Shown one piece after another: positions 16,082 through 32,536 of a stretch of DNA of 38,552 bases. The stretch is from an uncultured Elusimicrobia bacterium. Its GTDB lineage: Bacteria > Elusimicrobiota > Elusimicrobia > UBA1565 > UBA9628. The notes beneath the pieces were generated by a model. The model was not told the DNA's origin and ran no database searches. It worked only from the letters and a program-made list of their open reading frames with translations. Both the position numbers and the translations under genes were made by a program. Every line of letters starts with the position of its first letter. The first letter of the stretch is position 1. The stretch spans positions 1 through 38,552 of the forward strand of contig CAIQSZ010000370.1 of assembly GCA_903874575.1 (NCBI GenBank), in the 5' to 3' direction.

Positions 16082-16133
16082 CGAATTGCTCCTGGTCATG
16101 TCGATATGCCAGCCTCGGCGGAGGCGACCGGTC

Positions 16134-16147
16134 ATTATATAACATTG
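16134..16147 (-). promoter_or_regulatory. AT-rich element upstream of nrdJ: possible -10 box (TATAAT on minus strand) and/or degenerate NrdR-box-like site
   Basis: The minus strand reads CAATGTTATATAATGA about 50 nt upstream of the nrdJ ATG. It is the only AT-rich island in this intergenic region. The palindromy is imperfect. Confidence 0.25.
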
Positions 16148-19026: not shown

Positions 19027-20198
19027 GCGGAAACTTATTTCTCGGCGTGATTCTTCTTCTCGGAGGGGCGGCGACCATGTCGGATTGGCGGGAGAGCCGC
19101 GTGCCGAACCGGCTCGTCCTGCTGGGCCTGGCCGCCTTCGCCGGCGGACTGGTCTATCACCTGCTCTCCTCGGTCCTCGGGCATCGGGGATGGCGCCTGC
19201 TCGACATAGGTGAATATTATTTGCCCTGGCGTTTTTTCTCGATGCTGGGCGTTCACGCGATTTTGAGTCTCATCGCCGGTTGGACTCTGTGGCGTGTCGA
19301 CGTTTGGCCCGCCGGCGACGCCAAGCTTTATATTGTAATTTCTTGGCTCCTGCCTCTGGCCAACGCGAATTTGACGGGTTTCCCGAGACTCCTCTTCATC
19401 GTACTCCTCATCAATTGCTTCGTGCCGCCGGGTATACTCTTCGCCTGCGAGGGGGTCATCCGGCTCGCGGCCGCGGTCCCGGCGTTCTTTTCCGAAGGGA
19501 TATTCCGCGCGCTCAAGTCCGCCGTGAGCCGCGTCGTCCGGCGGATCAAGGACCTGCGGCCCATGCGACTGGAGGTGGCCGCCTTGCTGGTCAATTTGGC
19601 GTGCTTGTTCTTCGTCATGCGCTTGCTCGAGGCGCAGCTTCACCGCCAGCCGTTCGGGGCTTTAGGCCAGCTCGCGGTGTTTCTATCGATGCTCGTGGTC
19701 TGGCCTCGGCTTGTCGTCCTCCTCTATCGACCCCGATTAGGCGCCGCGGCGCTGTGTCTGTTTTTCGTCGGAGCAGTCTGCGCCGTCGTCGCGGGATTGG
19801 ACTTGGGGGCGGTTGTCTGGCGCGCGGCCAAGATGATGGTCAACTTCGGTTTCGCTCTTTCTTTGGCGCGCGTGGTCTTCAGCCGCGTCATCGAGCGCTC
19901 GAGTCTGCGGGACGTCGCCCCCGACGAATTGCGCCCGGGCGCCTTGCTGGCGGACACGGAGTGGGAAGCGCTTTCCAAGGACGAGGGCTCGCGCGGGATC
20001 GTGGAAGAGAGGAACTGCGACGGCCTGACGCGCGTCGAGGCCGAAGCTCTCCGCAGCAGCCTGTCGGGCCGCGGCGTCCGTTCCTTGTGCGTTTACCGGA
20101 CCGTTCCTTTCGCGGCCTGGATATTCCTGGGCACGGTATTGACCCTCGCGCATCAGGGGACCATCGTGTCTTGGGCTCGGAGTTGGATGGCTCGATGA
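19023..20198 (+). CDS. A24-family (prepilin peptidase-like) polytopic aspartyl protease with an inserted or extended C-terminal region
   Basis: The first Asp context MSDWRESRVPNRL resembles the D-x-R-x-x-IPN of CpaA/TadV. The second is WPAGDAKLY, a GxGDxKL-like motif. The C-terminal TVPFAAWIFLG resembles the PFGPFL end of prepilin peptidases. ATGA overlaps on both sides with radical SAM genes. Confidence 0.6.
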   Translation: MSGNLFLGVILLLGGAATMSDWRESRVPNRLVLLGLAAFAGGLVYHLLSSVLGHRGWRLLDIGEYYLPWRFFSMLGVHAILSLIAGWTLWRVDVWPAGDAKLYIVISWLLPLANANLTGFPRLLFIVLLINCFVPPGILFACEGVIRLAAAVPAFFSEGIFRALKSAVSRVVRRIKDLRPMRLEVAALLVNLACLFFVMRLLEAQLHRQPFGALGQLAVFLSMLVVWPRLVVLLYRPRLGAAALCLFFVGAVCAVVAGLDLGAVVWRAAKMMVNFGFALSLARVVFSRVIERSSLRDVAPDELRPGALLADTEWEALSKDEGSRGIVEERNCDGLTRVEAEALRSSLSGRGVRSLCVYRTVPFAAWIFLGTVLTLAHQGTIVSWARSWMAR

Positions 20199-21106
20199 GC
20201 GAACGCATCGACCTTAAAGTGGGTTTTCGCTGCAACAACTACTGCACGTTCTGCGTCCAGGGCGACAAACGTCAGCGTCTGCCCTCCAAGCCCGAGGGCG
20301 AACTTTTCAAAGCGCTCGAGGAGGGCCGGCTTGAAGGCGCCGACGGCGTCGTTCTCACCGGCGGCGAGCCGACGCTTCATCCTAAGATCGTCGCCATCGC
20401 GGCCAAAGCCAAGAGCCTCGGCTATCGGACGATCCAGGTCCAGACCAACGGGCGGACCTTCTGCTACGGCGACCTTATCAAGCGCCTGGCCGACGCGGGC
20501 GTCAACGAGTTCGGTCCATCCCTGCATGGTTCCACGGCGAGGATACACGATTGGCTCACCGGCGCGCCGGGGGCCTTCCTTCAGACCGTCTCGGGCATGC
20601 GCAACATAAAGAAACACGGAATGCGCCTCATCACCAACTCCGTCATTACGAGAGCCAATTATCGAGATCTCCCTAATTTGGCGAAGCTTCTCGTGTCGCT
20701 CGGCGTCGATCAGTTTCAATTCGCGTTCATGCACATGACCGGGCGCGCCGGAGAGAACAAGAATTGGCTGACGGCGCGCATGGCGATCGCCGAGCCTTGG
20801 GTGAAAAAGGCTCTTGACGTCGGCATCGCCGCCGGCCGGACCGTCATGACCGAGGCTATTCCTTACTGCCGCATGTCCGGGTATGAGGACTATGTCGCCG
20901 AGAGGATCATTCCCCGCACCCGAATCTACGACGCCGACTGCGTCATCGCCGACTACACCAAGACCCGTTTGGACGAAGGGAAGGCTCGCGGACCGCTTTG
21001 TCCGAAATGCGATTGGAACGACCGTTGCGAGGGTCCGTGGCGGGAATATCCGGAACTTTTCGGTTGGGATGAATTCGTTCCGGTTTTGCGAACTGGGGGG
21101 GCTTAG
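20195..21106 (+). CDS. radical SAM enzyme, HxsC-like paralog 2
   Basis: CNNYCTFC, LTGGEPTL, QTNGRTF and C-terminal CPKCDWNDRC (CxxCx5C). Confidence 0.75.
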   Translation: MSERIDLKVGFRCNNYCTFCVQGDKRQRLPSKPEGELFKALEEGRLEGADGVVLTGGEPTLHPKIVAIAAKAKSLGYRTIQVQTNGRTFCYGDLIKRLADAGVNEFGPSLHGSTARIHDWLTGAPGAFLQTVSGMRNIKKHGMRLITNSVITRANYRDLPNLAKLLVSLGVDQFQFAFMHMTGRAGENKNWLTARMAIAEPWVKKALDVGIAAGRTVMTEAIPYCRMSGYEDYVAERIIPRTRIYDADCVIADYTKTRLDEGKARGPLCPKCDWNDRCEGPWREYPELFGWDEFVPVLRTGGA

Positions 21107-22302: not shown

Positions 22303-22929
22303 ATGTCGGCGCGCAGGGAGAATATCAGGGTGAAAAAGCAATCGAAGGAATCTAAGATCGTGGTGGACCTTTCGGTGTATCCATTGGAGGCGGTCCAGGC
22401 CGTGGCTTACTCGCTGATGGAGCGCCTTTCCGTTCGCATAGAACGCGGCGGGAATAAAGCGGTTTCCGTCATCCTGAAGCCGAAGTCGGGCGGGAATCCC
22501 GAGGCGCTGGCCGACGAATTCCAAGGCGAGCTTCTGCATGAGACCCTCCGTCTCCAGGTGTCGCTGGCGAATCAAAAGATCCGAGAGTACATCGTGACGA
22601 AGGCCTTGGTTTCGGCCCAGGTTCCCAGTGTGGTTCCGGAAGCGGTCTCTGATTCGGCCTCGTCGGCGGCGGCTGAGTCCTGTCCCGAGTGCCAGGCCCA
22701 ACAGGCCCAAGCCGCGCCGCCTCCGGTCGACGCGGAATTGGAGAAAGAGATCGAGAAACTTCTCGTTGAAATCGAGAAGGGCGACGGCGGAGACGATCCT
22801 CTGGGAGTGGCGGTGCCGTGGGAAGAGAAGTACGGCAAGGCGTCCGAAGCCGCGCCGCCGCCTTCGGATAAAGAGCCCTCGAAAATGAAATCAAAAACGG
22901 CAAAGCCGGCGAAGCCGGGGGCTGCATGA
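22303..22929 (+). CDS. hxsD: HxsD-like protein (His-Xaa-Ser system accessory protein) with ~100-aa low-complexity C-terminal extension
   Basis: FQGELLHETLRLQVSLANQKIREYIVTKAL resembles the LLNDYxLRE signature I recall for HxsD. The gene sits directly upstream of hxsB with an ATGA overlap. The tail contains CPEC and Pro/Ala/Lys-rich sequence. Confidence 0.55.
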   Translation: MSARRENIRVKKQSKESKIVVDLSVYPLEAVQAVAYSLMERLSVRIERGGNKAVSVILKPKSGGNPEALADEFQGELLHETLRLQVSLANQKIREYIVTKALVSAQVPSVVPEAVSDSASSAAAESCPECQAQQAQAAPPPVDAELEKEIEKLLVEIEKGDGGDDPLGVAVPWEEKYGKASEAAPPPSDKEPSKMKSKTAKPAKPGAA

Positions 22930-24395
22930 GCGGGGAAGCCCCCATCGTGGAGTTCCCACGCCTCAATCCGGAAAAGACGGGTTTTTTTCGGTTTCGACGG
23001 CTCAAGGATGATTATCTCATCACCAATGATTTCGGCCGGCACTGCCTCTTAACGGCGGCGGAGTTCAAGAGCTTCGTCGAGGGCTCGATGGACGCATCCT
23101 CGCCGTTGTACGCGCGGCTGGCGCAGGACGGATTCATCCGCGACAGCATGGATTTCGAGGCGTTGACGTCCGTTTGGCGGACTCGCAACCGCTTCCTATG
23201 GCAGGCCCCCAATCTTCATATCATCGTCGTCACTTTGCGCTGCAACCACCGTTGCCTCTACTGTCAGGCCAACTCGGTCTCGATGAAGGATGAGTCGTCG
23301 GATATGAGTTTGGAGACGGCGCGCAAGGTCGTGGACCGGATATTCGAGAGCGTAAGCCCCGCCATCACCATCGAGTTCCAGGGCGGGGAACCCTTGGCCA
23401 ACTGGCCGGTCGTTCAGTTCATCGTCGAGTACGCCCGCACGAAGAACCGCGAGGCCGGCAAGAGCCTGTGGATCAACTTAGTCACCAACCTGAGTCTCAT
23501 GGACGACGAGAAGTTGAAATTCCTCCTCAAGAACGAGGTCAACTTTTGCACTTCGCTCGATGGGCCCGCGGACCTGCACGACAAGAACCGCGTTTTCTCC
23601 GGCGGCAACAGCCATGCCGGCGCCGTGCGGTGGTTCAAGAAGATTCAGAAGAAGACGGTGGGCAAAGCCTTCCGCATCGATGCCTTGCTGACGGTGACGC
23701 GGTTCTCGCTGTCGCGCCACAAGGACATCATCGATGAGTATATCGGTCTCGGCATGCGCGGGATATACCTGCGGCCTTTAAGCCGGCTCGGCCTGGCGCG
23801 CGGGACCTGGGACCGGATCGGCTACGAGCCGGACGAGTTCCTCGAATTCTATCGGAAGTCGCTCGATTACATCCTTGAAATCAACAAACGCAAGAATTTT
23901 TTCGAGCAGACCTCCCGCTTGTTCCTGGCTAAGATTTTGGGAGACAACGATCCCAACTTTTTGGACCTCCGTTCGCCCTGCGGCGCGGGGATCGGCCAGA
24001 TCGCCTACAACTTCAACGGCGATCTTTATACCTGCGACGAAGGACGGATGTTCTCGCGCATGGGAGACGAATCCTTCCGCATCGGGGGCGTCAACGAGGG
24101 ATCTTACCAGGAAAGCGTGAGCCACCCGACCGTGCGCGCCATCACGGTGGCTTCCACCCTGGATAACCAACCGCAGTGCTCGAAATGCGCTTATAAGCCC
24201 TACTGCGGCGTGTGCCCGGTGCAGTGCTACGGTGAACAAGGCGATATCATGGGCCGCATGCCGTCCAACACGCGTTGCCGCTTGAACATGGGCGTCCAGG
24301 ACGCTTTATTCGAGCGGCTTCGGGATCCTAAGACGGAAAAGACTTTCAGGAAATGGATTCGTGAAAGAAAAGAACCGGCCGTCTCTCCGCGCTAG
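22926..24395 (+). CDS. hxsB: radical SAM/SPASM maturase, HxsB-like
   Basis: CNHRCLYC lies ~110 aa from the N-terminus. FQGGEPL is present. C-terminal SPASM-type Cys cluster CGAG...YTCDEG...CSKCAYKPYCGVCP. Directly upstream of the His-Xaa-Ser repeat gene. Confidence 0.75.
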   Translation: MSGEAPIVEFPRLNPEKTGFFRFRRLKDDYLITNDFGRHCLLTAAEFKSFVEGSMDASSPLYARLAQDGFIRDSMDFEALTSVWRTRNRFLWQAPNLHIIVVTLRCNHRCLYCQANSVSMKDESSDMSLETARKVVDRIFESVSPAITIEFQGGEPLANWPVVQFIVEYARTKNREAGKSLWINLVTNLSLMDDEKLKFLLKNEVNFCTSLDGPADLHDKNRVFSGGNSHAGAVRWFKKIQKKTVGKAFRIDALLTVTRFSLSRHKDIIDEYIGLGMRGIYLRPLSRLGLARGTWDRIGYEPDEFLEFYRKSLDYILEINKRKNFFEQTSRLFLAKILGDNDPNFLDLRSPCGAGIGQIAYNFNGDLYTCDEGRMFSRMGDESFRIGGVNEGSYQESVSHPTVRAITVASTLDNQPQCSKCAYKPYCGVCPVQCYGEQGDIMGRMPSNTRCRLNMGVQDALFERLRDPKTEKTFRKWIRERKEPAVSPR

Positions 24396-24404
24396 AGGTA
24401 TTCC

Positions 24405-24872
24405 ATGGGCAAAGAAATCATTCCTAAAATCAAAAAAGACCTCACTCGGTTCTTGACGAGTGAAGAAGGTAAGATGCTCAAGAAGGACATCCTTAAGGCC
24501 GCAGCCATCCTGGGCATCGTCGGAGCGACCATGATGAAGGCGGAGGACGTCCTCGCTCAGACCCACACCAACGCCCTCCATAATTCGGGCGGACAGGCGT
24601 CGAGCCATGTGAGCCATAGTTCGCATGCCAGCCATGCTTCTCACGGCTCTCACGGCAGCCACGGTTCGCACGGCAGCCACGGTTCGCACGGCTCCCATGG
24701 CTCGCACGGAAGCCACGGCAGCCACGGGTCCCACGGCTCGCACGGATCCCATTCATCCCACGGCAGCCACGGCAGTCATGGGAGCCATGGCAGCCACGGC
24801 AGTCATGGCAGCCACGGCAGCCACGGCAGCCACGGCAGTCATGGGAGCCATGGCAGCCACGGGAGTTGGTAG
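24405..24872 (+). CDS. hxsA: His-Xaa-Ser repeat precursor protein (29 H-x-S triplets, 24 of them HGS)
   Basis: GAGG RBS 7 nt upstream of the ATG. A 67-aa N-terminal region contains the Sec-like hydrophobic segment KKDILKAAAILGIVGATMMKAEDVLAQ. Then HVS-HSS-HAS-HAS-(HGS)12-HSS-(HGS)12-W-stop. Confidence 0.85.
   Translation: MGKEIIPKIKKDLTRFLTSEEGKMLKKDILKAAAILGIVGATMMKAEDVLAQTHTNALHNSGGQASSHVSHSSHASHASHGSHGSHGSHGSHGSHGSHGSHGSHGSHGSHGSHGSHSSHGSHGSHGSHGSHGSHGSHGSHGSHGSHGSHGSHGSW
24606..24866 (+). repeat. coding tandem repeat, 9-nt period x 29 (CAY-GGN-TCN/AGY)
   Basis: Read directly from the sequence. The first 12 HGS units mix TCT/TCG/TCC/AGC Ser codons, while the last 12 use only AGC/AGT. The last 12 also contain an exact 36-nt duplication, units 1-4 equal to units 8-11 of that block. 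Confidence 0.95.
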
Positions 24873-26652
24873 CGGAGCAACGTCCGGAAGCAACTGGTCG
24901 AAGGCGCTGCTCAAGGTCGGCTACGCCTGCAATAATCGCTGTGTCTTCTGCCATTCGGAGTCGTTCCGGGTCATCCATCCCGAACTGACGACGCGGGACC
25001 TCCAGGCTCGGATACTGGAGGTCAAGGCGCGCGGCGTCGAGATGGTGGTTTTTTCCGGCGGCGAGCCGACGCTGCGTTCCGACATCTCTGAGTTGGCCCG
25101 TTTCGCGCATCAACAGGGGCTGAAAACCGGCTTTATCACGAACGGGCGTCGGTTCGCGTACCCCTCGTTCGTTCGGGATATGCGCGCCTGCGGGCTCCGC
25201 TTCGTTTATACGTCCTTCCATTCGCCCCTTCGTCGCGCTCATGAGTCGTCGAGCGGCGCCGACAGCCTCACGCAAGTCCTGGCCGCGTTGCGCCACTTGT
25301 CGCGTTCGGAAGTCGAACTGACCGTCAACACGGTCGTCACGCGCCATAACATCGGGAGCCTGTCGGAGGTCGTCGACCTTTTAGCCGCGTTCGCCCCCGC
25401 GAGGATTAAGTTCTCGGTCGTCGAGCCGAAGGGCGCGGCTCTCGAGAATCCGACGCTCTGTCCCCCGCTGAAGGAGAGCGCGGCGGCGATTTCGGACGCG
25501 ATCCGATATGGGGAATCAAGGCATCCGAACGTTCGCTTCGCTTGCGAAGGGCTGACGCCGTGCCTTATCGACGATTTCGACCGACTCAACGACGACCTGG
25601 TTTCGAACGGATTCGTGCTTTTTCAGGAGACGTTCGAGTCTCGTCCCGTCCGCCCCGATTACGGCAATCGCGCGAAAGCGGCGGCGTGTTGGGATTGCGC
25701 GCGGCACGATTCGTGCCCCGGCGTGTTTCAGGGCTATCTTTCCTCCGATCACGATCTCCCGATTCAGCCGCGGCCGAGCCGCATTTCCAATTCCTTCGTT
25801 TTCCTGCGCGGGGATCTCGCCGCCCCTCCGCGCGTCCCGGCGGAGTGCTCCTTGGAACGGGGCGACGTCCGCGGCATTTTCGTCGCCGAAGGGAATCGAC
25901 TGCGCTCGTATCGGACGCCCACGTCCGATTTTTCCGACGCCGAGATCGCGGAGACATTGCGTCTCGGCCAAGTGTATAAGACCCGCGGCGCGAAGCATAA
26001 GGGACTCGAGTATGGGCGCGACCTGGTCAAATACCGCGTCTCGCGGCTGTGCCGCTCGTGCGACCGTCGCGTCGGGTGCTCCCGCATCTACGAGAGGAGT
26101 CCGGGCAACGCCTTCGCTCCGTTGGAATCGGCGTTGGAGGACGTCGTGCGCGGCCTGCGCGGCGATATCCTGGAGGTCGGCTGCGGCAATATCCGGTTCC
26201 GAAGCGTACTCGAGGCCCTCGTTCGGGCGGGGCGCATGAGGTACGTCGGCATCGATCCGCATCTACCGCGGATGGCGGTTCCGCGCGGCATGTCGGTGCG
26301 CCGCGTCGATATCGAGGATTTCGACGCGGCCGCCGCCGCGTTCGATCATATCCTGATTTCGCGCAGCTACAACCATATCCGGCTTCCCTCCGTGGCTTTC
26401 CCGAAAATCCGACGATTATTGAGGGCGAAAGGCCGCTTGACCGTCGTCGACGGAGTTTCCTGCGGGATACTCCTGCCGCGTCGGCCTCCCGAGGCGTCCG
26501 CGTCGGAGTTCCAACACTATCGGAACCATTCGTCGGGGCAGGCTAAGGAGATGATCGCGTCGTTCGGCTTTTCCGCGGTCCGCGAGATCCCGGTCGATCC
26601 CGGCGGCGGCAGCGAGTGGCTGCTTTCCTTCCGCAAGAAGAGCCTCGAATGA
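24841..26652 (+). CDS. hxsC: radical SAM enzyme (HxsC-like, paralog 3) fused to a C-terminal class I SAM-dependent methyltransferase-like domain
   Basis: CNNRCVFC, FSGGEPTL, ITNGRRF and CWDCARHDSC (CxxCx5C). The C-terminal ~200 aa carry DILEVGCGNIRF, a motif I GxGxG-like sequence. No start codon exists after the hxsA stop. The candidate ATGs at 24841 and 24850 lie inside the hxsA repeat in the +1 frame, so the start is uncertain. Confidence 0.7.
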   Translation: MGAMAATGVGSGATSGSNWSKALLKVGYACNNRCVFCHSESFRVIHPELTTRDLQARILEVKARGVEMVVFSGGEPTLRSDISELARFAHQQGLKTGFITNGRRFAYPSFVRDMRACGLRFVYTSFHSPLRRAHESSSGADSLTQVLAALRHLSRSEVELTVNTVVTRHNIGSLSEVVDLLAAFAPARIKFSVVEPKGAALENPTLCPPLKESAAAISDAIRYGESRHPNVRFACEGLTPCLIDDFDRLNDDLVSNGFVLFQETFESRPVRPDYGNRAKAAACWDCARHDSCPGVFQGYLSSDHDLPIQPRPSRISNSFVFLRGDLAAPPRVPAECSLERGDVRGIFVAEGNRLRSYRTPTSDFSDAEIAETLRLGQVYKTRGAKHKGLEYGRDLVKYRVSRLCRSCDRRVGCSRIYERSPGNAFAPLESALEDVVRGLRGDILEVGCGNIRFRSVLEALVRAGRMRYVGIDPHLPRMAVPRGMSVRRVDIEDFDAAAAAFDHILISRSYNHIRLPSVAFPKIRRLLRAKGRLTVVDGVSCGILLPRRPPEASASEFQHYRNHSSGQAKEMIASFGFSAVREIPVDPGGGSEWLLSFRKKSLE

Positions 26653-28916
26653 CGAAAAGACGGCGCGTGCTGCTGGTGAATCCTCCGGCGCTCCTGGACC
26701 GGGATTTCATCGATTATCCTCAATTCGTCGGGTTGGGGGTCGCGTCGAACGCCGCGGCTCTGCGCGCGCGGGGGCTTGCCGTGACGGTGGCGGACGCCCA
26801 GATGTCGGCGCAGGCCGAGGTCGCGGCAAGGGACGACGGCCGAGTGCGGCTTGGCTGCGATCTGGAACGGCTTCTGAAGACCGTCCCCGGCGATTTCGAC
26901 GACGTCGTCGTCGGAGTGTCCCCCTACGCGAAGCCGCACGCGCGCACCGAATTCACCGCGCGGCAGTTCGCCGCGGCGCGCGCGCGCTTCCCTTCCGCGA
27001 GGCTGGTGGCGGCGGATTTCTATTTCGGCGGCATCCACTATATCGAGTACGACGGCGAACGGTTTTTGCGCGATTATCCCCAAGTGGACGCCGTGGTGAA
27101 ATATGAGGGCGAATCGGCGCTTGCCGCTCTTCTGAAGTCCTCCGGCCCGCTGCCGCGCGTGACGCGCGCGGTCGCGGAGGACATCCCGGTGGACTCCCTG
27201 CCTTATCCCGCTTGGGACCCGAAGTTCGTCGAAGGGCACGGAGACTTGTCGGCGAAGTTTTATGCCGCGAGCGGCCGTCCGGCGCCCTATCCGCCCGGCG
27301 TCGTGACCTTGCCCGCGGTGACTTCCCGGAGCTGCGCTTACCGCTGTTCCTTCTGCACCTCGAATCCGGGCCAGAGCCGAGCGTCGTTCCGGCCGCATGG
27401 GGCGGCTTACCTGCGGCGATATTTTTCCGAACTAAAAAATAAATTCTCCGTCCGACGCCTGGTCCTTCTTGACGGATGCGCCAATTACGATCCGGCGCGT
27501 TTCGACGAGATATTATCGATTATCGGAGAACTCGGCTTGCGCTGCGATTTCCCGAACGGGCTTCGAGCGGACAAATTGACTTTTGCGGCGCTCCGGGCGC
27601 TGAGCGCCGTCTCGGACGGCGTTTCCATCAGCGCGGAATCAGGCGATCCCGAGGTCCTTTCGCATATTTTTAAGAAAGGGATGGATCTTTCGGCCGTCGA
27701 GAGAGTCGCGTCCTGGTGCCGCGAGCTCCGGCTGCCTATAGGCATTCATTATATCGTCGGCGCTCCCGGGGAGACGCCGGAGAGCGTCAATCGGACCCTG
27801 CGCCACGCGTTGAGGATGACGGACGATTTCGGGGCCCGGCCGCTGCTGCAGAATTTCGTGCCTATTCCCGGCACGGCGCTTTATGGGGAGTGCGAGCGGC
27901 GGGGGCTTCTGAAGAGGTTCGACGCGGAGAATCTCCATCGATATTTTCAGGGAGAGCCGGCCCTGTCCACGCCCTCGCTGAGCCGGGCGAAGCTGTCGCG
28001 CATGGTCCGTCTGTTCCGGAGCAGGCTGGAGGCTTCGTCGCTGCAGAAAGTCATCGTCAACCTCACCTATCACTGCAACAACAACTGCCGGTTCTGCGCC
28101 GTCGGGGACCGGGGCAAGCGGCATGGGGACTTCGAGCGCTATGGGCGGCTTCTGGCCGACTATAGAAAGCGCGGAGTCACGGCTCTGGATTTGGACGGAG
28201 GCGAGCCGACGCTGTATCCGGAATTTTTTCCGCTCGTCCGCCTGGCGCGGCGATGCGGCTATGAGAAGATCACGGTCACGACCAACGGCCGGCGGCTCGC
28301 CGATCGCGCCTTCGCGGCTCGTTTTCTTCTCAGCGGCATCTCCGACCTGCTGATCTCCCTGCACGGGCATACGCCGGAGATCCACGAATATCAAACGAGA
28401 CGAAAGGGGAGCTTCGCCGAGGCCGTCCAGGGCCTCCGCCATGCGTTGAGGCTCAAGCCCGGCCGCATGACGGTGGGGGTCAATACCATGCTCCTCGCGG
28501 AGAACGCCCGGCATCTTCCGAGCTTCCTCGATTTCATGGATGAATTGGGGGTGGAGAAGGTGAACGTCCAACTGCTGACCCCCTTCGGCAACGCGGCGGC
28601 CGCGCCCGGTCGGGGCGATTTCGACGTCTACGGACATGCGGCTCGCGCGCTGCGGCGTCGGAAGAAGACGCCGGCCGTTCAACTCGTCAACGTCGTTCCC
28701 TGCCTGCTCGCGGGGCACGCGCGAGGCGTGCCGGCCGAACTCGGCAAGCATGGGCGGGAGATGGTGTTCGTGGACGCGGCTCCTCGCAATCTCGCCGCAT
28801 ACCTTGACGCTCGGAGGCATAAGACTGATCAATGTCGAGGCTGTGAATTTGATATCGGATGCGGCGGCTTCCATGTCTTCAACGCTGAAGAAGATCGAAC
28901 TGATCCTCTGGTTTAA
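26649..28916 (+). CDS. double radical SAM fusion: N-terminal class-B-like (B12-binding-like domain + rSAM) and C-terminal HxsC-like rSAM (paralog 4)
   Basis: The N-terminus RRVLLVNPPALLDRDFIDYPQFVGLGVASNAAALRARGLAVTVAD is B12-binding-domain-like. The first cluster motif is CAYRCSFC. The second half has CNNNCRFC, LDGGEPTL, TTNGRRL and CRGCEFDIGC (CxxCx5C). ATGA overlap with the upstream stop. Confidence 0.7.
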   Translation: MTKRRRVLLVNPPALLDRDFIDYPQFVGLGVASNAAALRARGLAVTVADAQMSAQAEVAARDDGRVRLGCDLERLLKTVPGDFDDVVVGVSPYAKPHARTEFTARQFAAARARFPSARLVAADFYFGGIHYIEYDGERFLRDYPQVDAVVKYEGESALAALLKSSGPLPRVTRAVAEDIPVDSLPYPAWDPKFVEGHGDLSAKFYAASGRPAPYPPGVVTLPAVTSRSCAYRCSFCTSNPGQSRASFRPHGAAYLRRYFSELKNKFSVRRLVLLDGCANYDPARFDEILSIIGELGLRCDFPNGLRADKLTFAALRALSAVSDGVSISAESGDPEVLSHIFKKGMDLSAVERVASWCRELRLPIGIHYIVGAPGETPESVNRTLRHALRMTDDFGARPLLQNFVPIPGTALYGECERRGLLKRFDAENLHRYFQGEPALSTPSLSRAKLSRMVRLFRSRLEASSLQKVIVNLTYHCNNNCRFCAVGDRGKRHGDFERYGRLLADYRKRGVTALDLDGGEPTLYPEFFPLVRLARRCGYEKITVTTNGRRLADRAFAARFLLSGISDLLISLHGHTPEIHEYQTRRKGSFAEAVQGLRHALRLKPGRMTVGVNTMLLAENARHLPSFLDFMDELGVEKVNVQLLTPFGNAAAAPGRGDFDVYGHAARALRRRKKTPAVQLVNVVPCLLAGHARGVPAELGKHGREMVFVDAAPRNLAAYLDARRHKTDQCRGCEFDIGCGGFHVFNAEEDRTDPLV

Positions 28917-29760
28917 ATGCAACTGCCGCTGCGCTTTCTGCGTCGTCGACGCGGAGACGGCGCGTCAGTCCATGACGACGGCCGAAGCCGTGCGTCACAT
29001 GGGGCGAGCCCGGAAGGAGGGCGCGAGCGCGGTGGATTTCGGCGGCGGGGAGCCGACGCTGCGCGACGACTTGGCCGCGCTCGTCCGGGCCGCCGCCGCG
29101 TTCGGGTATTCGGACATCGGCGTCAAGTCGAACGGATTGATGTTCTGCTATCCGGAATACGTCGAGACGTTGCGCCGCGCGGGGGCGGACCGTTTTTCCG
29201 TCTCCGTTTGGGGCGATTGCCCGTCCGTCCATGACGCGCTCTGCCGGACGCCGGGGGCCTTCGAGAAGATGGAGATGGGGATAAAAAACGTCGTCGATTC
29301 GGGGGGCGATCCTGAGGCCGAGGTTCTGCTGACCGTCGGGTCCGTCCCGCGGTTGGGGCGCATCGTGGGGGCGTTCGCGGACATCGGGGTGAAGCGGTTC
29401 CGGTTCTGGCTCTATTCGCTCTTCGGGGCGGATTCCCGTTTTCCGGAGCTTCTGCCGACGTTGACGGACGCGGGAGCGGCGATCTCGCGGACGTCCTCCT
29501 CCTTCGCATCCCGAGGACTGATTTTTTCGACGAGCCACGTCCCGCCCTGTTTTCTGCGCGCGCGGGGCGTCTACGCTCCCATTGCCGACGAAGGACTGCG
29601 CATCATCACGCCGGGCGGAGCGTTCGCCGCCGAGCGTTCGCCGTTCGAGGCCGGCGTCAAGACGCGGCGGTGCGCGGGATGCTCCCACGCCGACCGTTGC
29701 GGAGGGGTTCGTCACGAATATCTCCAGCGTTTCTCCGATGCCGAAATCACGCCGATCTGA
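28873..29760 (+). CDS. radical SAM enzyme, HxsC-like paralog 5
   Basis: CNCRCAFC, FGGGEPTL, KSNGLMF and CAGCSHADRC (CxxCx5C). The ATG at 28873 overlaps the previous gene by 44 nt. Confidence 0.7.
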   Translation: MSSTLKKIELILWFKCNCRCAFCVVDAETARQSMTTAEAVRHMGRARKEGASAVDFGGGEPTLRDDLAALVRAAAAFGYSDIGVKSNGLMFCYPEYVETLRRAGADRFSVSVWGDCPSVHDALCRTPGAFEKMEMGIKNVVDSGGDPEAEVLLTVGSVPRLGRIVGAFADIGVKRFRFWLYSLFGADSRFPELLPTLTDAGAAISRTSSSFASRGLIFSTSHVPPCFLRARGVYAPIADEGLRIITPGGAFAAERSPFEAGVKTRRCAGCSHADRCGGVRHEYLQRFSDAEITPI

Positions 29761-31156
29761 GGGGTTGCCGCCGGCGCAGGCGCGCGACTTTCAACGCTAT
29801 CTCGAAATGGCCCGCGGGCTTCCTTGGGAGGCCGAGCAGCTGCCGGCCTGCGAACTGCACGGCGCGCCGCTCTCCGGAGAGGCTGTCGGCGCGCTTTGGG
29901 CTCAGGCCGTCCGGGCGGGCTCTTTCGGGGGGGGCCTCGGCCTCTATTGCCACATTCCGTTCTGCGCGAGCCGTTGCGGCTATTGCCATTGCTTTTCCGA
30001 CGCCTTGAAGCGCCCGGATGAGTTAAGCGACCACCTCCGCCTGCTCTTGACGGAGATCTCTCTCTGGGGGCCGACGTTCGCCCGGAGCCGCTTCACCAAC
30101 GCCTACATCGGCGGCGGGACGCCCACGCTCCTGCCTCCGAAAGGCCTGGCGCTTCTATTGGGCGCGATACGAAGCGCCTTCCGTTTCACGGATGACGCTC
30201 AGATTACCGTCGAGTCCACGCCGAGGACCGCCGACGCGAACCGTTTGGCCGTCCTGCGCGCCCATGACGTCCGTCGCCTGAGTCTCGGCGTTCAATCCTT
30301 GGATCGCGCGGTGCTGGCCCGCGCGGATCGACAATGGCAGACCTTCGAGATGGTGGAACGCGCCTGCCTCAACGCCCGCCGGGCGGGGTTCCCCATCGTG
30401 AACGCCGACCTCATCGCGGGCCTTCACGGTCAATCCGTCGCCTCGCTCATCGCGGACGCGCAAGCGGTGGCTCGGCTGGGATTCGATACGATACACGTCT
30501 ACTACTTCGAACCGAACAAAGGCGCCTACGACGGCCGCGGTCGCCTCGGCGCCGCCTGGCGACGGCGCCGTCAGGCCATGCTGGCGGCGGTCGGTCCCGC
30601 CCTGGCTCCTTACGGCTACCGGGCCATCTTCGGCGAGACGATCTACGCGTTGCGCGAGGGGGCGGAGAACCGCTACGATTTCGAACGGTACTTCCGAGCG
30701 GGTTCGATCCTCGGTCTGGGATGGCAGGCTGAATCCCATGCTTTCCCGGGAACCAACTACAGACATCTTTCGAGGCAATCGTGGCAGGAAAGCCTTCGGG
30801 CCGGTCGCATGCCGCCCGTGCGGTCGTACCGGGGCGGACCGGACTGGGAAATGCGGGAGTTTCTCGTCTTCCGTCTGCGCCAAGGGGTCGATTATGGCGT
30901 TTTCCGGAGACTTTTCGGCTGTCGGCCTCAGGACGCGTTTCCGGCCGCCTTCCGCGCCCTCCGGCGGGCCGGCCGCCTTCGCGAGCGGACCGGCTTCGTT
31001 CAGGCGGTGTTCGGCTCACAGTTGGAGTATCTGGCCGTCACTTTGCATTTTTTCCCCGAAGAATCTCTTTTGAGGGCATTGTCGATGCGCCCATCGGTCC
31101 AGACGGATGGAGGGCGAGAGTCGCCCGTGCGTCGCGGCTCGCGCCCGGAGGCGTAG
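29738..31156 (+). CDS. HemN-like (class C) radical SAM enzyme
   Basis: YCHIPFCASRCGYCHC (CX3CX2C followed by an extra Cys), YIGGGTPTLL, SLGVQS and a HemN_C-like tail. The start is uncertain: ATG at 29738 or 29810. Confidence 0.75.
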   Translation: MPKSRRSEGLPPAQARDFQRYLEMARGLPWEAEQLPACELHGAPLSGEAVGALWAQAVRAGSFGGGLGLYCHIPFCASRCGYCHCFSDALKRPDELSDHLRLLLTEISLWGPTFARSRFTNAYIGGGTPTLLPPKGLALLLGAIRSAFRFTDDAQITVESTPRTADANRLAVLRAHDVRRLSLGVQSLDRAVLARADRQWQTFEMVERACLNARRAGFPIVNADLIAGLHGQSVASLIADAQAVARLGFDTIHVYYFEPNKGAYDGRGRLGAAWRRRRQAMLAAVGPALAPYGYRAIFGETIYALREGAENRYDFERYFRAGSILGLGWQAESHAFPGTNYRHLSRQSWQESLRAGRMPPVRSYRGGPDWEMREFLVFRLRQGVDYGVFRRLFGCRPQDAFPAAFRALRRAGRLRERTGFVQAVFGSQLEYLAVTLHFFPEESLLRALSMRPSVQTDGGRESPVRRGSRPEA

Positions 31157-31157
31157 C

Positions 31158-32300
31158 GTGACCTCCGTCAAAGGAAGCCCGGAAATATATCTCGACAATG
31201 CCGCCACCACGCCGCTGCGCCCGGCCGCGTTGCGCGCGATGATGGATTGCTCCCGGCGTTTCTACGGCAATCCCTCCTCGTGGCATCGCAAGGGCGTCGA
31301 GGCGTCTCGGGCCGTGGAGAAAAGCCGCCGAATCCTCGCGCTGGCTCTGGGTTGCGAGCCGGACGAGATCGTCTTCACTTCCGGGGGTACGGAAGCCAAT
31401 AATCTCGCCGTCAAAGGGGTGGCGCGGGCTTTAGGGAGGCGCCGGGCCCACGCCGTCGTCTCGGCCGTCGAGCATCCCAGCGTGGCGGCCGCCGTCCAGT
31501 CGCTGAAGGCGCGGGGCTGGTCGATCACCGTCGTGAAGACGGACGAAGATGGGATGGTCGCGCCCCGCCGCGTCGCCGAGGCGCTGACCTCCTCCACCGC
31601 TTTGGTCAGCGTCATGCACGCCAACCATGAGATCGGGACGATCGAGCCCATCGCCGAGATCGGCCGCCTCTGTCGACGGGCCGGAGTCCTCTTTCACAGC
31701 GACGCCTGCCAAAGCTTCATGAAGGAGCCGCTGGATTTGAGACGGGTTGCGGTGGATTTGGTCAGCGTCAACGCCCACAAACTCCATGGACCAAAGGGCG
31801 TCGGCGCCTTGGTCGCGCGCCGAGGATCGTCTCTGGCGCCGCTCCTGGACGGGGGCGGACAGGAAGGCGGACGTCGTTCCGGGACCCACAATACCCCCGC
31901 CATCGCGGGGTTCGCCGCCGCCGTGGAGGACTCCGACCCCGGGGCGCCCGAGAAGATGCGGCGTCTGCGTGACAGGCTCTTTGCGGCGCTCGTTCGGACG
32001 ATACCGGGGCTGAGCCTTAATGGGCCGCGTCATGGCCGCCTCTGCAGCCATCTGAATCTGCTGCTGCCGGGGCTCCAGGCCAAGCCCTTCCTCCAAAAAC
32101 TCAGCGCCGCGGGGATATACGCTTCCGCCGGAGCGGCCTGTTCCTCAGCCAAGACCACTCCTAGTCCCGTGCTGCTCGCCATTGGAAGGACTCCCGAGCA
32201 GGCGTCGTGCAGCGTGCGCTTGAGTTTGAGCCGCTCGACCACTCCGTCCCAGATCGACGCGGCGGCTCGGACGATGGCGTCGCTCGCCCGCGGCCTATGA
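31158..32300 (+). CDS. cysteine desulfurase (NifS/IscS-like, class V aminotransferase)
   Basis: IYLDNAATTP, TSGGTEANN, PLP-lysine context SVNAHKLHGPKGVGAL, RSGTHN and active-site loop SAGAACSS. A GTG start at 31158 lies 1 nt after the upstream stop. The ATG at 31107 would overlap by 50 nt. Confidence 0.8.
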   Translation: MTSVKGSPEIYLDNAATTPLRPAALRAMMDCSRRFYGNPSSWHRKGVEASRAVEKSRRILALALGCEPDEIVFTSGGTEANNLAVKGVARALGRRRAHAVVSAVEHPSVAAAVQSLKARGWSITVVKTDEDGMVAPRRVAEALTSSTALVSVMHANHEIGTIEPIAEIGRLCRRAGVLFHSDACQSFMKEPLDLRRVAVDLVSVNAHKLHGPKGVGALVARRGSSLAPLLDGGGQEGGRRSGTHNTPAIAGFAAAVEDSDPGAPEKMRRLRDRLFAALVRTIPGLSLNGPRHGRLCSHLNLLLPGLQAKPFLQKLSAAGIYASAGAACSSAKTTPSPVLLAIGRTPEQASCSVRLSLSRSTTPSQIDAAARTMASLARGL

Positions 32301-32536
32301 CCGAATCCGAAGAGACCCTTGATCTTCGCGGCGTTCCTTGTCCAGCCAACGCGGCTCGGGCGCTGATGGCGCTCGAGGGGTGCGAGGCCGGAGACCTGCT
32401 GAGGCTACTGCTGGACGACGGCGAGCCCATCGAGAACGTGCCTCCCTCGCTGGAGGAGCAGGGCCATGCCGTGGTCGGGAAATCCTGGCGGGGAGGGGCG
32501 TGGGAACTGTCGGTGAGGGCGGGAGGTCCATCCTGA
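32297..32536 (+). CDS. TusA/SirA-like sulfurtransferase
   Basis: LDLRGVPCPANA matches the DxRGxxCPxP persulfide-carrier motif. About 79 aa. ATGA overlap with the cysteine desulfurase gene. Confidence 0.75.
   Translation: MTESEETLDLRGVPCPANAARALMALEGCEAGDLLRLLLDDGEPIENVPPSLEEQGHAVVGKSWRGGAWELSVRAGGPS

What the first reader, a model, noticed from the sequence alone, without database searches (positions are those of the whole stretch)
26649..28916. Single 755-aa polypeptide carrying two complete radical SAM domains of different classes
The N-terminal half looks like a class B rSAM. It has a Rossmann-like, B12-binding-type lead-in (VLLVNPP...GLGVASNAAALRARGLAVTVAD) followed by CAYRCSFC. The C-terminal half is a full HxsC-like domain (CNNNCRFC ... 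CRGCEFDIGC). Covalent fusion of two rSAM catalytic domains is rare. It implies sequential chemistry on the same substrate, for example cobalamin-dependent methylation plus a second radical transformation. Together with the HemN-like enzyme and the class I methyltransferase-like domain, the operon would encode up to three mechanistically distinct methyltransferase types.
Basis: partly seen in the sequence, partly recalled or inferred. Interest (0 to 1): 0.7.

Follow-up and report, generated by a model that had tools for sequence, protein, structure and literature searches.

The report
Two-domain radical SAM peptide maturase
One 755-residue protein really does join two complete, conserved radical-SAM enzyme domains; it belongs to a widespread but undescribed family found mostly in expanded His-Xaa-Ser peptide-maturation gene clusters, whose chemistry is still unknown.

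Summary
ORF 26649-28916 (+) is an uninterrupted 755-aa gene with two radical SAM (rSAM) domains. All six cluster cysteines (C229/233/236 and C476/480/483) and both SAM-binding motifs are conserved in 83-84 of 84 relatives. The two halves lie in one stop-free frame in 84/84 loci from other genomes, so it is not an assembly artefact.

The N-half has a Rossmann-type lead-in homologous to the B12-binding domain of class-B rSAM enzymes (99.3% probability for the lead-in alone), followed by an rSAM core. Cobalamin binding and methyl transfer remain unproven. The best solved relative of the core, AprD4, binds no cobalamin.

The C-half is one of five paralogous HxsC-like modules in the window. Each has a 4-Cys auxiliary motif that canonical HxsC also carries, but none reaches the HxsC or HxsC4 cut-offs.

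The gene sits in an expanded His-Xaa-Ser operon with an HxsD-like gene, HxsB, and an HxsA4 precursor ending (SHG)n-SW. In other genomes the neighbouring rSAM or methyltransferase is fused onto the same chain.

Most likely it is a two-active-site maturase of the repeat peptide. FbiC is a precedent for two rSAM domains on one chain, so this is a new variant rather than a new kind.

The parts
26649..28916 (+). Whole gene: 755-aa double radical SAM protein (ATG 26649; stop TAA 28914-28916)
26655..27293 (+). aa 3-215: Rossmann-type (5 strands, 5 helices) B12-binding-like lead-in, with motifs VLLVNPP, GLG..AA.LR..G..V.V.D, GG.H and YEGE
   Evidence: hhalign on the lead-in alone gives 99.3%, E 4.4e-20. 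Secondary structure. Pfam PF02310 scores only 17.6 bits, below GA 32.1.
27294..27983 (+). aa 216-445: first radical SAM core (six-strand partial barrel), AprD4/MgmA/TokK-like
27333..27356 (+). CAYRCSFC: first CX3CX2C motif (C229, C233, C236)
   Evidence: conserved in 84/84 relatives
27984..28031 (+). aa 446-461: linker helix at the domain junction, conserved (F456) and in frame in all relatives
28032..28886 (+). aa 462-746: second radical SAM module, HxsC-like, BlsE/MoaA/viperin/SkfB-like fold
28074..28097 (+). CNNNCRFC: second CX3CX2C motif (C476, C480, C483)
   Evidence: conserved in 83/84 relatives, with one alignment gap
28197..28208 (+). GGEP SAM-binding motif of the second domain (aa 517-520)
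   Evidence: 84/84
28701..28862 (+). Four-cysteine auxiliary-cluster motif: C685 ... C729-x2-C732-x5-C738-G-G-F
   Evidence: 84/84 in the family. Invariant in all five paralogous modules of the window. Also present in canonical HxsC.
22303..22929 (+). HxsD-like protein
   Evidence: TIGR03976 44.5 bits, E 1.5e-11, just below the cut-off of 50. Equivalent genes in related loci carry PF27806 HxsD.
22926..24395 (+). HxsB radical SAM/SPASM maturase
   Evidence: TIGR03978 530.9 bits, above the cut-off of 370. 39% identical to annotated plasmid hxsB.
24405..24872 (+). HxsA4 precursor: leader, then SHVSHSSHASHA(SHG)n-SW. The DNA is a period-9 array at 24612-24862.
   Evidence: NF038313 131.7 bits, above the cut-off of 55. 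The same ...SHGSW peptides occur in 23 related loci.
24850..26652 (+). HxsC-like radical SAM module fused to a class I SAM methyltransferase. Its stop overlaps the target's ATG.
   Evidence: In P0032, P0061 and P0064 the methyltransferase part is instead fused to the N-terminus of the double rSAM.
28873..29760 (+). Downstream HxsC-like radical SAM module (295 aa), overlapping the target's tail by 44 nt
   Evidence: An HxsC-like module lies immediately downstream on the same strand in 35/76 assessable loci. It is fused onto the same chain in P0058, P0069 and P0088.
18085..19026 (+). Further HxsC-like radical SAM module (313 aa)
20195..21106 (+). Further HxsC-like radical SAM module (303 aa; ATG 20195)
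29738..31156 (+). HemN-like radical SAM protein (subfamily unassigned). An accessory gene, not part of the conserved core.
31107..32300 (+). NifS/IscS-like cysteine desulfurase, a plausible Fe-S supply. Not found in any of the 84 related loci.

Best explanation
The gene encodes a genuine bifunctional radical SAM enzyme with two independent active sites, and probably three [4Fe-4S] clusters: one SAM-cleaving cluster in each half plus a 4-Cys auxiliary cluster in the C-half. It is a maturase of the expanded, HxsA4-type His-Xaa-Ser system encoded around it. Its substrate is most likely the ribosomal precursor HxsA4, a leader followed by about 30 Ser-His-Gly repeats ending in Ser-Trp. The inferred mechanism is as follows. 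Each half reductively cleaves its own SAM to a 5'-deoxyadenosyl radical and abstracts a hydrogen from the repeat peptide, so two different radical modifications are installed on the same or neighbouring tripeptide units. The C-half carries out HxsC-type chemistry, the still-undefined covalent modification of the HxS motif that E. coli HxsC-HxsD performs. The N-half, built like a class-B enzyme, adds a second step. That step is either cobalamin-dependent C-methylation (about 40% likely) or a cobalamin-independent radical reaction. The protein works in a complex with the flanking rSAM-methyltransferase and the downstream HxsC-like rSAM. Shown here: the architecture, the conservation of all catalytic motifs, the membership of the locus in the Hxs system, and the fusion links to the neighbours. 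Inferred: the substrate, the number of clusters, and the chemistry.
For: Architecture: there are two Pfam Radical_SAM stretches. The AF2 model has pLDDT 91.3 and pTM 0.90, with a Rossmann domain plus two six-strand barrels. Foldseek matches the N-half to AprD4, MgmA, TokK, CysS, TsrM and OxsB, and the C-half to BlsE, SkfB, viperin and MoaA. Both sites look live: C229/233/236, S328/E330, C476/480/483, GGEP 517-520, N546 and C685/729/732/738 are conserved in 83-84 of 84 relatives. Both halves show similar identity across relatives. The fusion is real: it is in one frame in 84/84 loci, 264 matched stretches were found in a scan of GTDB species-representative genomes, and dozens of full-length representatives exist at the 50% clustering level. 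Hxs context: HxsB and HxsA4 pass their curated cut-offs. Of 44 loci with at least 8 kb on each side, 34 have further HxsC-like rSAMs, 21 have HxsB and 17 have HxsD. 23 loci encode the ...(SHG)n-SW peptide. The loci without Hxs neighbours form one derived Myxococcota clade. Functional coupling to neighbours: the start and stop codons overlap. The downstream rSAM is fused on in P0058, P0069 and P0088, and the methyltransferase in P0032, P0061 and P0064. HxsC likeness: the best NCBIfam hits are HxsC4 and HxsC, and the P-C...CX2CX5C-x-G-F motif is shared with Aeromonas HxsC. Class-B likeness: hhalign gives 100% for the whole N-half and 99.3% for the lead-in alone, and TokK is the only PDB protein whose sequence alignment runs into the lead-in. 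The organism uses cobalamin, since it has an AdoCbl-dependent class II RNR. Precedents: E. coli HxsB and HxsC mature HxsA, adding +8 Da on SHRSS (PMC13128918), and FbiC uses two 5'-dA radicals from two fused rSAM domains (PMC11917521).
Against: There is no biochemical data for any member of this family. No curated equivalog model is passed by either half. The Pfam B12-binding domain is below threshold, and only 5 of 30 relatives hit it. AprD4, the top solved relative of the N-half core, does not bind cobalamin. TokK's lower-axial Trp76 aligns to a variable residue. No cobalamin riboswitch is present. One clade of about 18 Myxococcota loci has the fusion with no Hxs gene or other rSAM within 10 kb, so clustering with Hxs is not obligatory. 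The best solved relatives of both halves (AprD4, BlsE, DesII) act on sugars, and glycosyltransferase and carbamoyltransferase genes recur nearby. The peptide assignment rests on co-location only.
Confidence: 0.6

Rival explanations
1. The architecture is the same, but the N-half is a cobalamin-independent radical enzyme like AprD4. Its Rossmann-type domain is a structural or substrate-binding relic, so the protein does no methylation. The N-half would instead perform a dehydration-, epimerisation-, cross-link- or dehydrogenation-type step.
For: AprD4 is the best sequence and fold match of the N-half (E 2.9e-24 and TM 0.67-0.70). AprD4 and ArsL homologues carry Rossmann-related domains but bind no cobalamin (PMC12931638). 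Pfam B12-binding is below its cut-off, and only 5 of 30 relatives hit it. There is no cobalamin riboswitch. The operon already has a class I methyltransferase.
Against: The AprD4 sequence match covers only the rSAM core (aa 216-455), not the lead-in. The lead-in keeps the NPP, GG.H and EGE signatures and aligns at 99.3% probability with domains that do hit PF02310. The cobalamin-dependent methylases MgmA, TokK and CysS are the next-best folds. An AdoCbl-dependent RNR shows that the cell has cobalamin.
Confidence: 0.35
2. The enzyme acts on a non-peptide substrate, such as a sugar, glycan or lipid made by neighbouring glycosyl-, carbamoyl- and amidotransferases. Its co-location with Hxs genes would then reflect a shared envelope product rather than a shared peptide substrate.
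For: The top solved relatives AprD4, BlsE and DesII are sugar-modifying rSAM enzymes. A WbuX-like amidotransferase and a NodU-like carbamoyltransferase lie in the window. Glycosyltransferase and carbamoyltransferase genes occur in L001, L086 and L087. One clade has no Hxs neighbours at all.
Against: HxsC-like modules, HxsB, HxsD and (SHG)n-SW peptides are the genes that recur with the fusion. The sugar genes were seen in only a few loci. The C-half shares the HxsC-specific cysteine motif. MgmA, a protein-modifying methylase, is the second-best match for the N-half.
Confidence: 0.15
3. Only one half is catalytic. The other is a degenerate rSAM fold kept as a scaffold, a peptide-binding module or an electron-transfer module.
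For: Pseudo-rSAM modules do exist in this superfamily. Relative P0111 has a middle module without CX3CX2C, and NCBIfam holds a 'pseudo-SAM/SPASM' family.
Against: In this family both cysteine triads and both SAM-binding motifs are conserved in 83-84 of 84 sequences, down to about 32% identity. Both halves are conserved to a similar degree.
Confidence: 0.07
4. The fusion is an artefact: a misassembly, a frameshift or a missed stop codon has joined two adjacent genes.
For: The window is a metagenome-assembled contig, and adjacent rSAM genes in this operon overlap.
Against: The fusion is in one stop-free frame in 84/84 independent loci from several phyla. The linker is conserved and modelled with confidence. 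About 47 full-length homologues were found in the first search alone.
Confidence: 0.01

Closest known systems
FbiC (FO synthase, a fusion of CofG and CofH)
   Same: It is one polypeptide with two complete rSAM domains. Each generates its own 5'-deoxyadenosyl radical for successive steps on one pathway, and split and fused forms both exist in nature (PMC11917521). Here too, stand-alone N-half and C-half relatives exist (P0129, P0144).
   Different: There is no specific sequence relationship: no curated model is passed, and the best hits are Hxs, MoaA and HpnJ types. FbiC joins two similar small-molecule enzymes. This protein joins a class-B-type (Rossmann plus rSAM) enzyme to an HxsC-type module with an auxiliary cluster, in a peptide-maturation context.
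HxsC of the canonical HXS system (HxsD-HxsB-HxsC-HxsA; antiphage in E. coli, PMC13128918)
   Same: The C-half gives its best family hits to HxsC4 and HxsC. It shares the rSAM core (24% identity over 168 aa, E 1e-10) and the P-C...CX2CX5C-x-G-F motif. It is encoded next to HxsB, an HxsD-like gene and a His-Xaa-Ser repeat protein.
   Different: It scores far below the curated cut-offs (77 against 268, and 107 against 500). It lacks the roughly 105-aa N-terminal domain of canonical HxsC, which here is replaced by a whole second rSAM enzyme. The window has five such modules rather than one. The precursor is (SHG)n-SW rather than five HxS repeats plus a peptidoglycan-binding domain. The taxa are Elusimicrobiota, Myxococcota and Binatia rather than Gammaproteobacteria.
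Class B (B12-dependent) radical SAM enzymes: TokK, MgmA/QCMT, CysS, TsrM, OxsB
   Same: The domain order is the same, an N-terminal 5-strand Rossmann domain followed by the rSAM core. The folds match (E 1e-12 to 1e-15). Profile homology extends through the lead-in. The NPP, GG.H and EGE motifs are kept.
   Different: Cobalamin binding is untested. Pfam B12-binding is below threshold. The lead-in has a 15-residue hairpin insertion after strand 2 (aa 50-68). No characterised subfamily model is passed (HpnJ 70 against 578; Sden_1168 P-methyltransferase 54 against 575). No known class B enzyme carries a second rSAM domain in the literature I could search.
AprD4 (radical SAM 1,2-diol dehydratase, PDB 6fd2)
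   Same: It is the best solved relative of the N-half by both sequence profile and fold. It is a Rossmann-related domain plus rSAM core that works without cobalamin.
   Different: It is only about 20% identical, and the sequence alignment stops at the rSAM core. AprD4 is a single-domain-pair aminoglycoside enzyme, with no second rSAM module and no peptide context.
Tes / GDGT-MAS (archaeal tetraether synthase)
   Same: It is a single chain with two CxxxCxxC motifs and several Fe-S clusters, proposed to hold two active sites (PMC8941075; PMC9433317). It gives a weak fold and sequence match to the C-half.
   Different: It is a lipid C-C coupling enzyme with a different domain layout, and it does not comprise two full partial-barrel domains of different subtypes.
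Triceptide (three-residue cyclophane) synthases acting on His-X-X motifs (HaaB, HtkB, YhhB)
   Same: These are rSAM/SPASM enzymes that cross-link His-C2 to C-beta of the third residue in repeated His-X-X motifs (PMC11499958). His-Gly-Ser repeats fit that motif, and the window's HxsB has weak similarity to the GrrM/OscB and YhhB models (57 bits).
   Different: This is an analogy for the operon's HxsB, not for the fusion protein. No cut-off is met, and the only measured Hxs modification is +8 Da, not -2 Da.

Membership tests
Radical SAM superfamily (N-terminal half) | CX3CX2C motif ligating the SAM-binding [4Fe-4S] cluster, within a partial (beta/alpha)6 barrel with a SAM-binding motif | tested here: met
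   C229/C233/C236 are conserved in 84/84, and S328/E330 (SAES) in 84/84. A Pfam PF04055 stretch is present. The model shows six strand-helix units at aa 220-402.
Radical SAM superfamily (C-terminal half) | CX3CX2C motif plus the GGE SAM-binding motif in a partial (beta/alpha)6 barrel | tested here: met
   C476/C480/C483 are conserved in 83/84, with one gap, and GGEP 517-520 in 84/84. PF04055 covers aa 470-629. The model shows six strand-helix units at aa 467-642.
Class B (cobalamin-dependent) radical SAM enzymes | Rossmann-type B12-binding-domain homologue N-terminal to the rSAM core | tested here: met
   hhalign on the lead-in alone against N-domains of PF02310-hitting proteins gives 99.3%, E 4.4e-20 over aa 3-199. 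The fold has 5 strands and 5 helices. Foldseek hits TokK, MgmA, CysS, TsrM and OxsB.
Class B (cobalamin-dependent) radical SAM enzymes | Pfam PF02310 (B12-binding) at or above its gathering score | tested here: not met
   The score is 17.6 bits against a cut-off of 32.1, matching only aa 125-162. Only 5 of 30 family members hit the model at E<=0.01.
Class B (cobalamin-dependent) radical SAM enzymes | Actually binds cobalamin, with a suitable residue under the corrin | tested here: inconclusive
   No universal sequence motif exists (PMC12931638). TokK W76 aligns to a variable position (window K95) in the conserved loop G-x-S-P-F/Y-L-x-P. The closest solved core relative, AprD4, does not bind cobalamin.
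Class B radical SAM methyltransferases | Methyl transfer from SAM via methylcobalamin to the substrate | not testable with these tools
   This needs an enzyme assay measuring the SAH to 5'-dA ratio and a +14 Da product.
HxsC (TIGR03977, His-Xaa-Ser system radical SAM maturase) | Score at or above the curated equivalog cut-off | tested here: not met
   The score is 77.3 bits against 267.9, and only model positions 28-212 of 292 are matched. BLASTP to Aeromonas HxsC gives 24% over 168 aa.
HxsC (TIGR03977) | C-terminal cysteine signature P-x-C ... C-x2-C-x5-C-x-G-F | tested here: met
   The window has VVPC685...C729RGC732EFDIGC738GGF, against Aeromonas HxsC IPHC...CDDCASKAVCCGFF. The motif is invariant in all five window modules and conserved in 84/84 of the family.
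HxsC (TIGR03977) | Stand-alone protein of about 400 aa with a roughly 105-aa N-terminal domain ahead of the rSAM core | tested here: not met
   The canonical HxsC N-terminal region has no counterpart here. In the window protein, a class-B-type rSAM enzyme precedes the module.
HxsC4 (NF038332) | Score at or above the curated cut-off | tested here: not met
   The score is 107.3 bits against 500. It is the best family hit of the C-half, but only the core (positions 12-200 of 335) matches.
His-Xaa-Ser (Hxs) system, at the level of the locus | HxsB maturase and a His-Xaa-Ser repeat precursor present | tested here: met
   HxsB scores 530.9 against 370, and HxsA4 scores 131.7 against 55.
His-Xaa-Ser (Hxs) system, at the level of the locus | HxsD present, and the four-gene order HxsD-HxsB-HxsC-HxsA | tested here: inconclusive
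   The HxsD-like gene scores 44.5 bits against 50, with E 1.5e-11. The order here is D-B-A followed by several rSAM genes, not the canonical D-B-C-A found in 99.6% of described systems.
FbiC / CofG-CofH | Homology of the two halves to CofG and CofH | tested here: not met
   No CofG or CofH model appears among the 25 best NCBIfam families, and none of the families shown reaches its cut-off. The resemblance is architectural only.

The most novel reading that the evidence does not exclude
The fusion is the core of a previously undescribed multi-radical-SAM 'assembly' in which 8-9 rSAM domains per operon, fused in twos, threes or fours in different lineages, work along a periodic (Ser-His-Gly)n-Ser-Trp substrate. 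The fixed spacing of the fused active sites would let several distinct radical steps, including a cobalamin-dependent C-methylation, be installed on every tripeptide repeat. The product would be a new kind of heavily cross-linked or methylated poly-imidazole polymer that is exported to the envelope (Tat-like leaders in Myxococcota) for phage defence or metal or DNA binding.
Probability: 0.25. Interest if true: 0.85.

Novelty: new variant of a known kind. Interest (0 to 1): 0.6.

Why it matters
Hxs systems were predicted in 2011 and were shown only in 2026 to be an antiphage defence that works through an rSAM-matured protein. The chemistry of that maturation is still undefined: all that is known is a +8 Da change on one HxS motif. 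The family described here is a conserved and widespread expansion of that system, with at least 264 matched stretches in a scan of GTDB species-representative genomes, all from uncultured lineages. In it an HxsC-type module is welded to a class-B-type rSAM enzyme and surrounded by more rSAM modules. They act on a much simpler, highly repetitive substrate, about 30 identical SHG units. That repetitiveness should make the modification easy to detect by mass spectrometry and NMR, so the locus is a practical way into Hxs chemistry. It also adds a second, unrelated example beside FbiC of two complete rSAM catalytic domains on one chain. Relatives with three or four rSAM motifs show that the domains in this system recombine as modules.

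Tried and rejected
1. Misassembly or frameshift was rejected: the fusion is in one frame in 84/84 loci.
2. Viperin or another antiphage family was considered. PADLOC gives only generic rSAM-core similarity to pVip (64.7 bits), and NCBIfam prokaryotic viperin scores 46.7 against 180, so this was rejected.
3. I looked for a cobalamin riboswitch or any other structured RNA as a clue to B12 use. There are no Rfam hits in the window.
4. I tried to settle cobalamin binding by aligning to TokK's lower-axial residue. The result was inconclusive.
5. I looked for an unfused 'split' operon using the stand-alone N-half homologues P0049 and P0050. Their neighbourhoods are not Hxs-like, so they are not simple split versions. 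The informative fusions were instead the triple rSAM proteins and the methyltransferase-plus-double-rSAM proteins.
6. Promoter and terminator scans gave nothing decisive about operon limits.
7. ORF 19280-21106 (608 aa) at first looked like another large rSAM protein. Its first 300 residues are an alternative frame of the membrane-protein gene ending at 20198, and the real rSAM gene starts at ATG 20195.
8. Literature searches for this architecture, for 'two/tandem/dual radical SAM domains' and for HxsA4 or HxsC4 found nothing beyond FbiC and Tes.

Full report

Yes. The + strand carries an uninterrupted ORF from ATG 26649 (an in-frame GTG lies at 26616) to TAA 28914-28916. The public protein collection holds exactly this 755-aa product from a 38,552-nt contig, without a name. 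The ATG overlaps the stop codon of the upstream gene (ATGA, 26649-26652). The next gene starts at ATG 28873, inside the last 44 nt. That tight packing is typical of a co-translated operon.

Pfam finds two separate Radical_SAM stretches (117.8 bits). AlphaFold2, run on a 30-sequence alignment, gives mean pLDDT 91.3 and pTM 0.90. The model has three parts:
- a Rossmann-type domain of 5 strands and 5 helices (aa 6-174);
- a first six-unit beta/alpha partial barrel (aa 220-402);
- after a linker helix (aa 446-461), a second six-unit barrel (aa 467-642) with a cysteine-rich tail.

**2. Is it more than chance or artefact?**

A first homology search gave about 47 full-length relatives (720-781 aa, 98-99% coverage, 60% down to 33% identity). 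A scan of one genome per GTDB species found 264 stretches encoding relatives. They come mainly from Elusimicrobiota (54-60% identical, with the same gene order as the window), Myxococcota, Binatia and Thermodesulfobacteriota, and nearly all of the listed records are metagenome-assembled genomes.

In all 84 fetched loci the N- and C-half matches lie in one stop-free reading frame. In an alignment of 84 family members the following are conserved:
- C229/C233/C236 in 84/84;
- C476/C480/C483 in 83/84, the exception being a gap;
- S328/E330 of the SAES motif, the GGEP motif (517-520) and N546, each in 84/84;
- C685, C729, C732 and C738, each in 84/84.

Both halves are conserved to a similar degree across relatives: about 31-57% identity for the N-half and 35-64% for the C-half. 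A frameshift, a chimeric contig or a decayed half are therefore excluded as general explanations.

**3. The N-terminal half**

By fold, residues 1-460 match the two-domain enzymes of the class-B type. The best match is AprD4 (E 4e-17, TM 0.67-0.70 on the target), followed by MgmA/QCMT, TokK, CysS, TsrM and OxsB.

By sequence profile, AprD4 (2.9e-24) and MgmA (1.5e-16) match the rSAM core. TokK is the only solved protein whose alignment runs into the lead-in (aa 84-379).

A profile-profile comparison with six proteins that carry both PF02310 and PF04055 aligns residues 3-468 at 100% probability (E 2.5e-51). Because the rSAM core could be driving that score, I repeated the test with the lead-in alone (aa 1-215). 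It gave 99.3% and E 4.4e-20 over aa 3-199, with the NPP, GLG..A..LR..G..V.V.D, GG.H and EGE signatures in register. Homology to the B12-binding domain of class-B rSAM enzymes is therefore real.

Function is a separate question, and four results leave it open:
- Pfam's B12-binding model scores only 17.6 bits against its 32.1 cut-off, and only 5 of 30 relatives hit it.
- A 2026 review states that there is no direct contact between the protein and the lower face of cobalamin, and that AprD4 and ArsL-type enzymes carry Rossmann-related domains without binding cobalamin (PMC12931638).
- TokK's lower-axial Trp76 aligns to a variable residue in the conserved loop G-x-S-P-F/Y-L-x-P.
- The window has no cobalamin riboswitch, although it does encode an adenosylcobalamin-dependent class II ribonucleotide reductase (TIGR02504 652 bits against 400), so the cell has the cofactor.

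I put cobalamin-dependent methylation at roughly 40%.

**4. The C-terminal half**

Residues 462-746 give their best family hits to HxsC4 (107 bits) and HxsC (77 bits). Both are far below the curated cut-offs of 500 and 268, and only the rSAM core is matched. Solved relatives are BlsE, PqqE, SkfB, viperins and MoaA.

The window holds five paralogous modules of about 295 aa, 25-31% identical to each other:
- 18085-19026;
- 20195-21106;
- the N-terminal part of 24850-26652;
- this C-half;
- 28873-29760.

All five share an invariant CX3CX2C near position 16, then GGEPT, NG, a P-C near position 225 and CX2CX5C-x-G near position 270. I fetched a canonical, annotated Hxs operon from an Aeromonas salmonicida plasmid. 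Its HxsC is only 24% identical over the core but carries the same tail: IPHC...CDDCASKAVCCGFF, against VVPC...CRGCEFDIGCGGFH here.

'HxsC-like' is therefore justified at the level of core and motif. Membership of the HxsC or HxsC4 equivalogs is not. The roughly 105-aa N-terminal domain of canonical HxsC is replaced here by a whole second enzyme. The four conserved cysteines most likely hold an auxiliary [4Fe-4S] cluster; this is an inference.

**5. Context**

The genes upstream and downstream on the same strand are as follows:
- an HxsD-like gene (22303-22929; 44.5 bits against a cut-off of 50);
- HxsB (22926-24395; 530.9 bits against 370);
- an HxsA4 precursor (24405-24872; 131.7 bits against 55), whose core is SHVSHSSHASHA(SHG)n-SW, encoded by a period-9 DNA array;
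- an HxsC-like rSAM fused to a class I methyltransferase (24850-26652);
- the target gene;
- an HxsC-like rSAM (28873-29760);
- a HemN-like rSAM;
- a NifS-like cysteine desulfurase.

Two more HxsC-like rSAMs lie further upstream. That makes nine rSAM domains within 15 kb.

Co-occurrence across relatives supports the link to Hxs:
- Of 44 related loci with at least 8 kb on both sides, 34 have further HxsC-like rSAMs, 21 have HxsB, 17 have HxsD and 9 have none of these.
- An HxsC-like module lies immediately downstream on the same strand in 35 of 76 assessable loci.
- 23 loci encode a precursor with the same stereotyped end...(SHG)n-SW.
- The loci with no Hxs neighbours form a single Myxococcota clade in a neighbour-joining tree. 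One of them, L019, sits among unrelated genes.
- HemN-like genes accompany the fusion in only 2 of 84 loci, and NifS in none. These two are accessory, not core.

**6. Fusion variants**

A search of 1.84 billion representative proteins found dozens of full-length representatives, and several other arrangements as well (P0032):
- chains with three CX3CX2C motifs (P0058, P0069, P0088; 1065-1090 aa), which are the target fused to its downstream-type neighbour;
- chains with the methyltransferase segment on the N-terminus of the double rSAM (P0032, P0061, P0064);
- chains with four motifs (P0138, P0171, P0204);
- stand-alone N-halves (P0129) and C-halves (P0144).

The methyltransferase can therefore sit on either neighbour, and the downstream rSAM can be part of the same chain. 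That is the classic sign that these proteins act together.

**7. Most likely mechanism**

Shown: two intact SAM-cleaving sites on one rigidly packed chain, a third conserved 4-Cys site, encoding within an Hxs-type maturation operon, and gene-fusion links to the flanking rSAM and methyltransferase.

From the literature: in E. coli, HxsB and HxsC (with HxsD bound to HxsC) mature HxsA in the cytoplasm. They add +8 Da on an SHRSS motif and enable N-terminal processing and export (PMC13128918). In FbiC, two fused rSAM domains each supply a 5'-deoxyadenosyl radical for successive steps.

Inferred: the protein modifies the (SHG)n core of HxsA4. The C-half performs the HxsC-type step and the N-half a second radical step, either methylation if cobalamin is bound or another hydrogen-abstraction-initiated reaction if it is not. 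Fusion may fix the spacing of the sites along a periodic substrate. HxsB, a SPASM enzyme with weak similarity to cyclophane synthases, could make His-to-Ser cross-links of the kind known for His-X-X motifs (PMC11499958). That is analogy only.

My confidence is above 0.95 in the architecture, about 0.65 in the peptide substrate and about 0.4 in cobalamin-dependent methylation.

**8. Comparison and novelty**

The idea of two rSAM domains on one chain is not new, given FbiC and, more loosely, Tes. The Hxs system and the names HxsA4 and HxsC4 already exist in NCBIfam. What I could not find described is this family: a class-B-type rSAM fused to an HxsC-type rSAM. I also found no description of its (SHG)n-SW system with up to nine rSAM domains, or of its three- and four-motif relatives. 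Sources annotate it only as 'radical SAM protein' or 'MoaA/NifB/PqqE/SkfB family'. I rate it a new variant of a known kind, with interest 0.6. The functional reading, cobalamin-dependent methylation and three methyltransferase types, is unproven.

Noticed in passing
L001:4770-8753: A NifH-like gene and two NifD/K-like (Oxidored_nitro) genes sit inside an rSAM-rich Hxs-type cluster, just upstream of that genome's double rSAM. A nitrogenase-like reductase in a peptide-maturation cluster is unusual.
   Followed up: no
window 18891-20198 (+): This is a polytopic membrane ORF with a weak prepilin-peptidase (Peptidase_A24) hit of 24.6 bits, below GA 26.5. Its stop codon overlaps the ATG (20195) of an HxsC-like rSAM. 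Homologues occur in L003, L010, L016 and L028. It may be the leader peptidase or an exporter for HxsA4.
   Followed up: partly
L023, L030, L038, L041, L054, L080 (HxsA4-type ORFs, coordinates): Myxococcota precursors begin with a twin-arginine-like KKLTRRD(L/F)L signal, which suggests Tat export after cytoplasmic maturation. Binatia-type precursors instead have LDFLSPxEAR...MLLAQH. Every complete precursor ends ...SHGSW; the exceptions are cut by a contig end or by Ns.
   Followed up: partly
window 24405-24872 (+) and 24612-24862: The HxsA4 precursor ORF is absent from the 15-billion-protein collection, so it was probably never called in the source annotation. Its coding DNA is a period-9 tandem array. 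The +1 frame of that array produces a spurious Ala/Thr-rich N-terminal extension of the next ORF (24625...). Repeat number varies from 12 to 25 among relatives.
   Followed up: partly
P0058, P0069, P0088, P0138, P0171, P0204: These are single polypeptides with three or four CX3CX2C radical SAM motifs, the longest being 1951 aa. P0111 has a middle HxsC-like module that has lost its cluster motif.
   Followed up: partly
window 32338-35404; L087:8557-11315; L001:13189-14247: A WbuX-like PP-loop amidotransferase and a NodU-like carbamoyltransferase lie in the window. GT4 glycosyltransferase and carbamoyltransferase genes lie in relatives. All recur just downstream of the rSAM block, hinting at further decoration such as Ser O-glycosylation or carbamoylation.
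   Followed up: no
window 13580-16135 (-): This is an adenosylcobalamin-dependent class II ribonucleotide reductase with a TSCPD domain (TIGR02504 652 bits against a cut-off of 400), which shows that the organism uses cobalamin. Next to it, at 16172-17128 (-), is a further rSAM protein of uncertain affiliation.
   Followed up: partly
L003:1-1315 (-), L081:5319-7600 (-): Other double-rSAM proteins occur in the same clusters. One is a different 664-aa protein with two Radical_SAM hits in L003. The other is a second, divergent copy of the N-half plus C-half fusion in L081.
   Followed up: no
window 5639-8739 (+): There is a large secreted-type protein with CarboxypepD_reg and lamin-tail domains, and a protein with a prepilin N-terminal methylation motif. 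They suggest a type IV pilus or pseudopilin neighbourhood upstream of the Hxs cluster.
   Followed up: no
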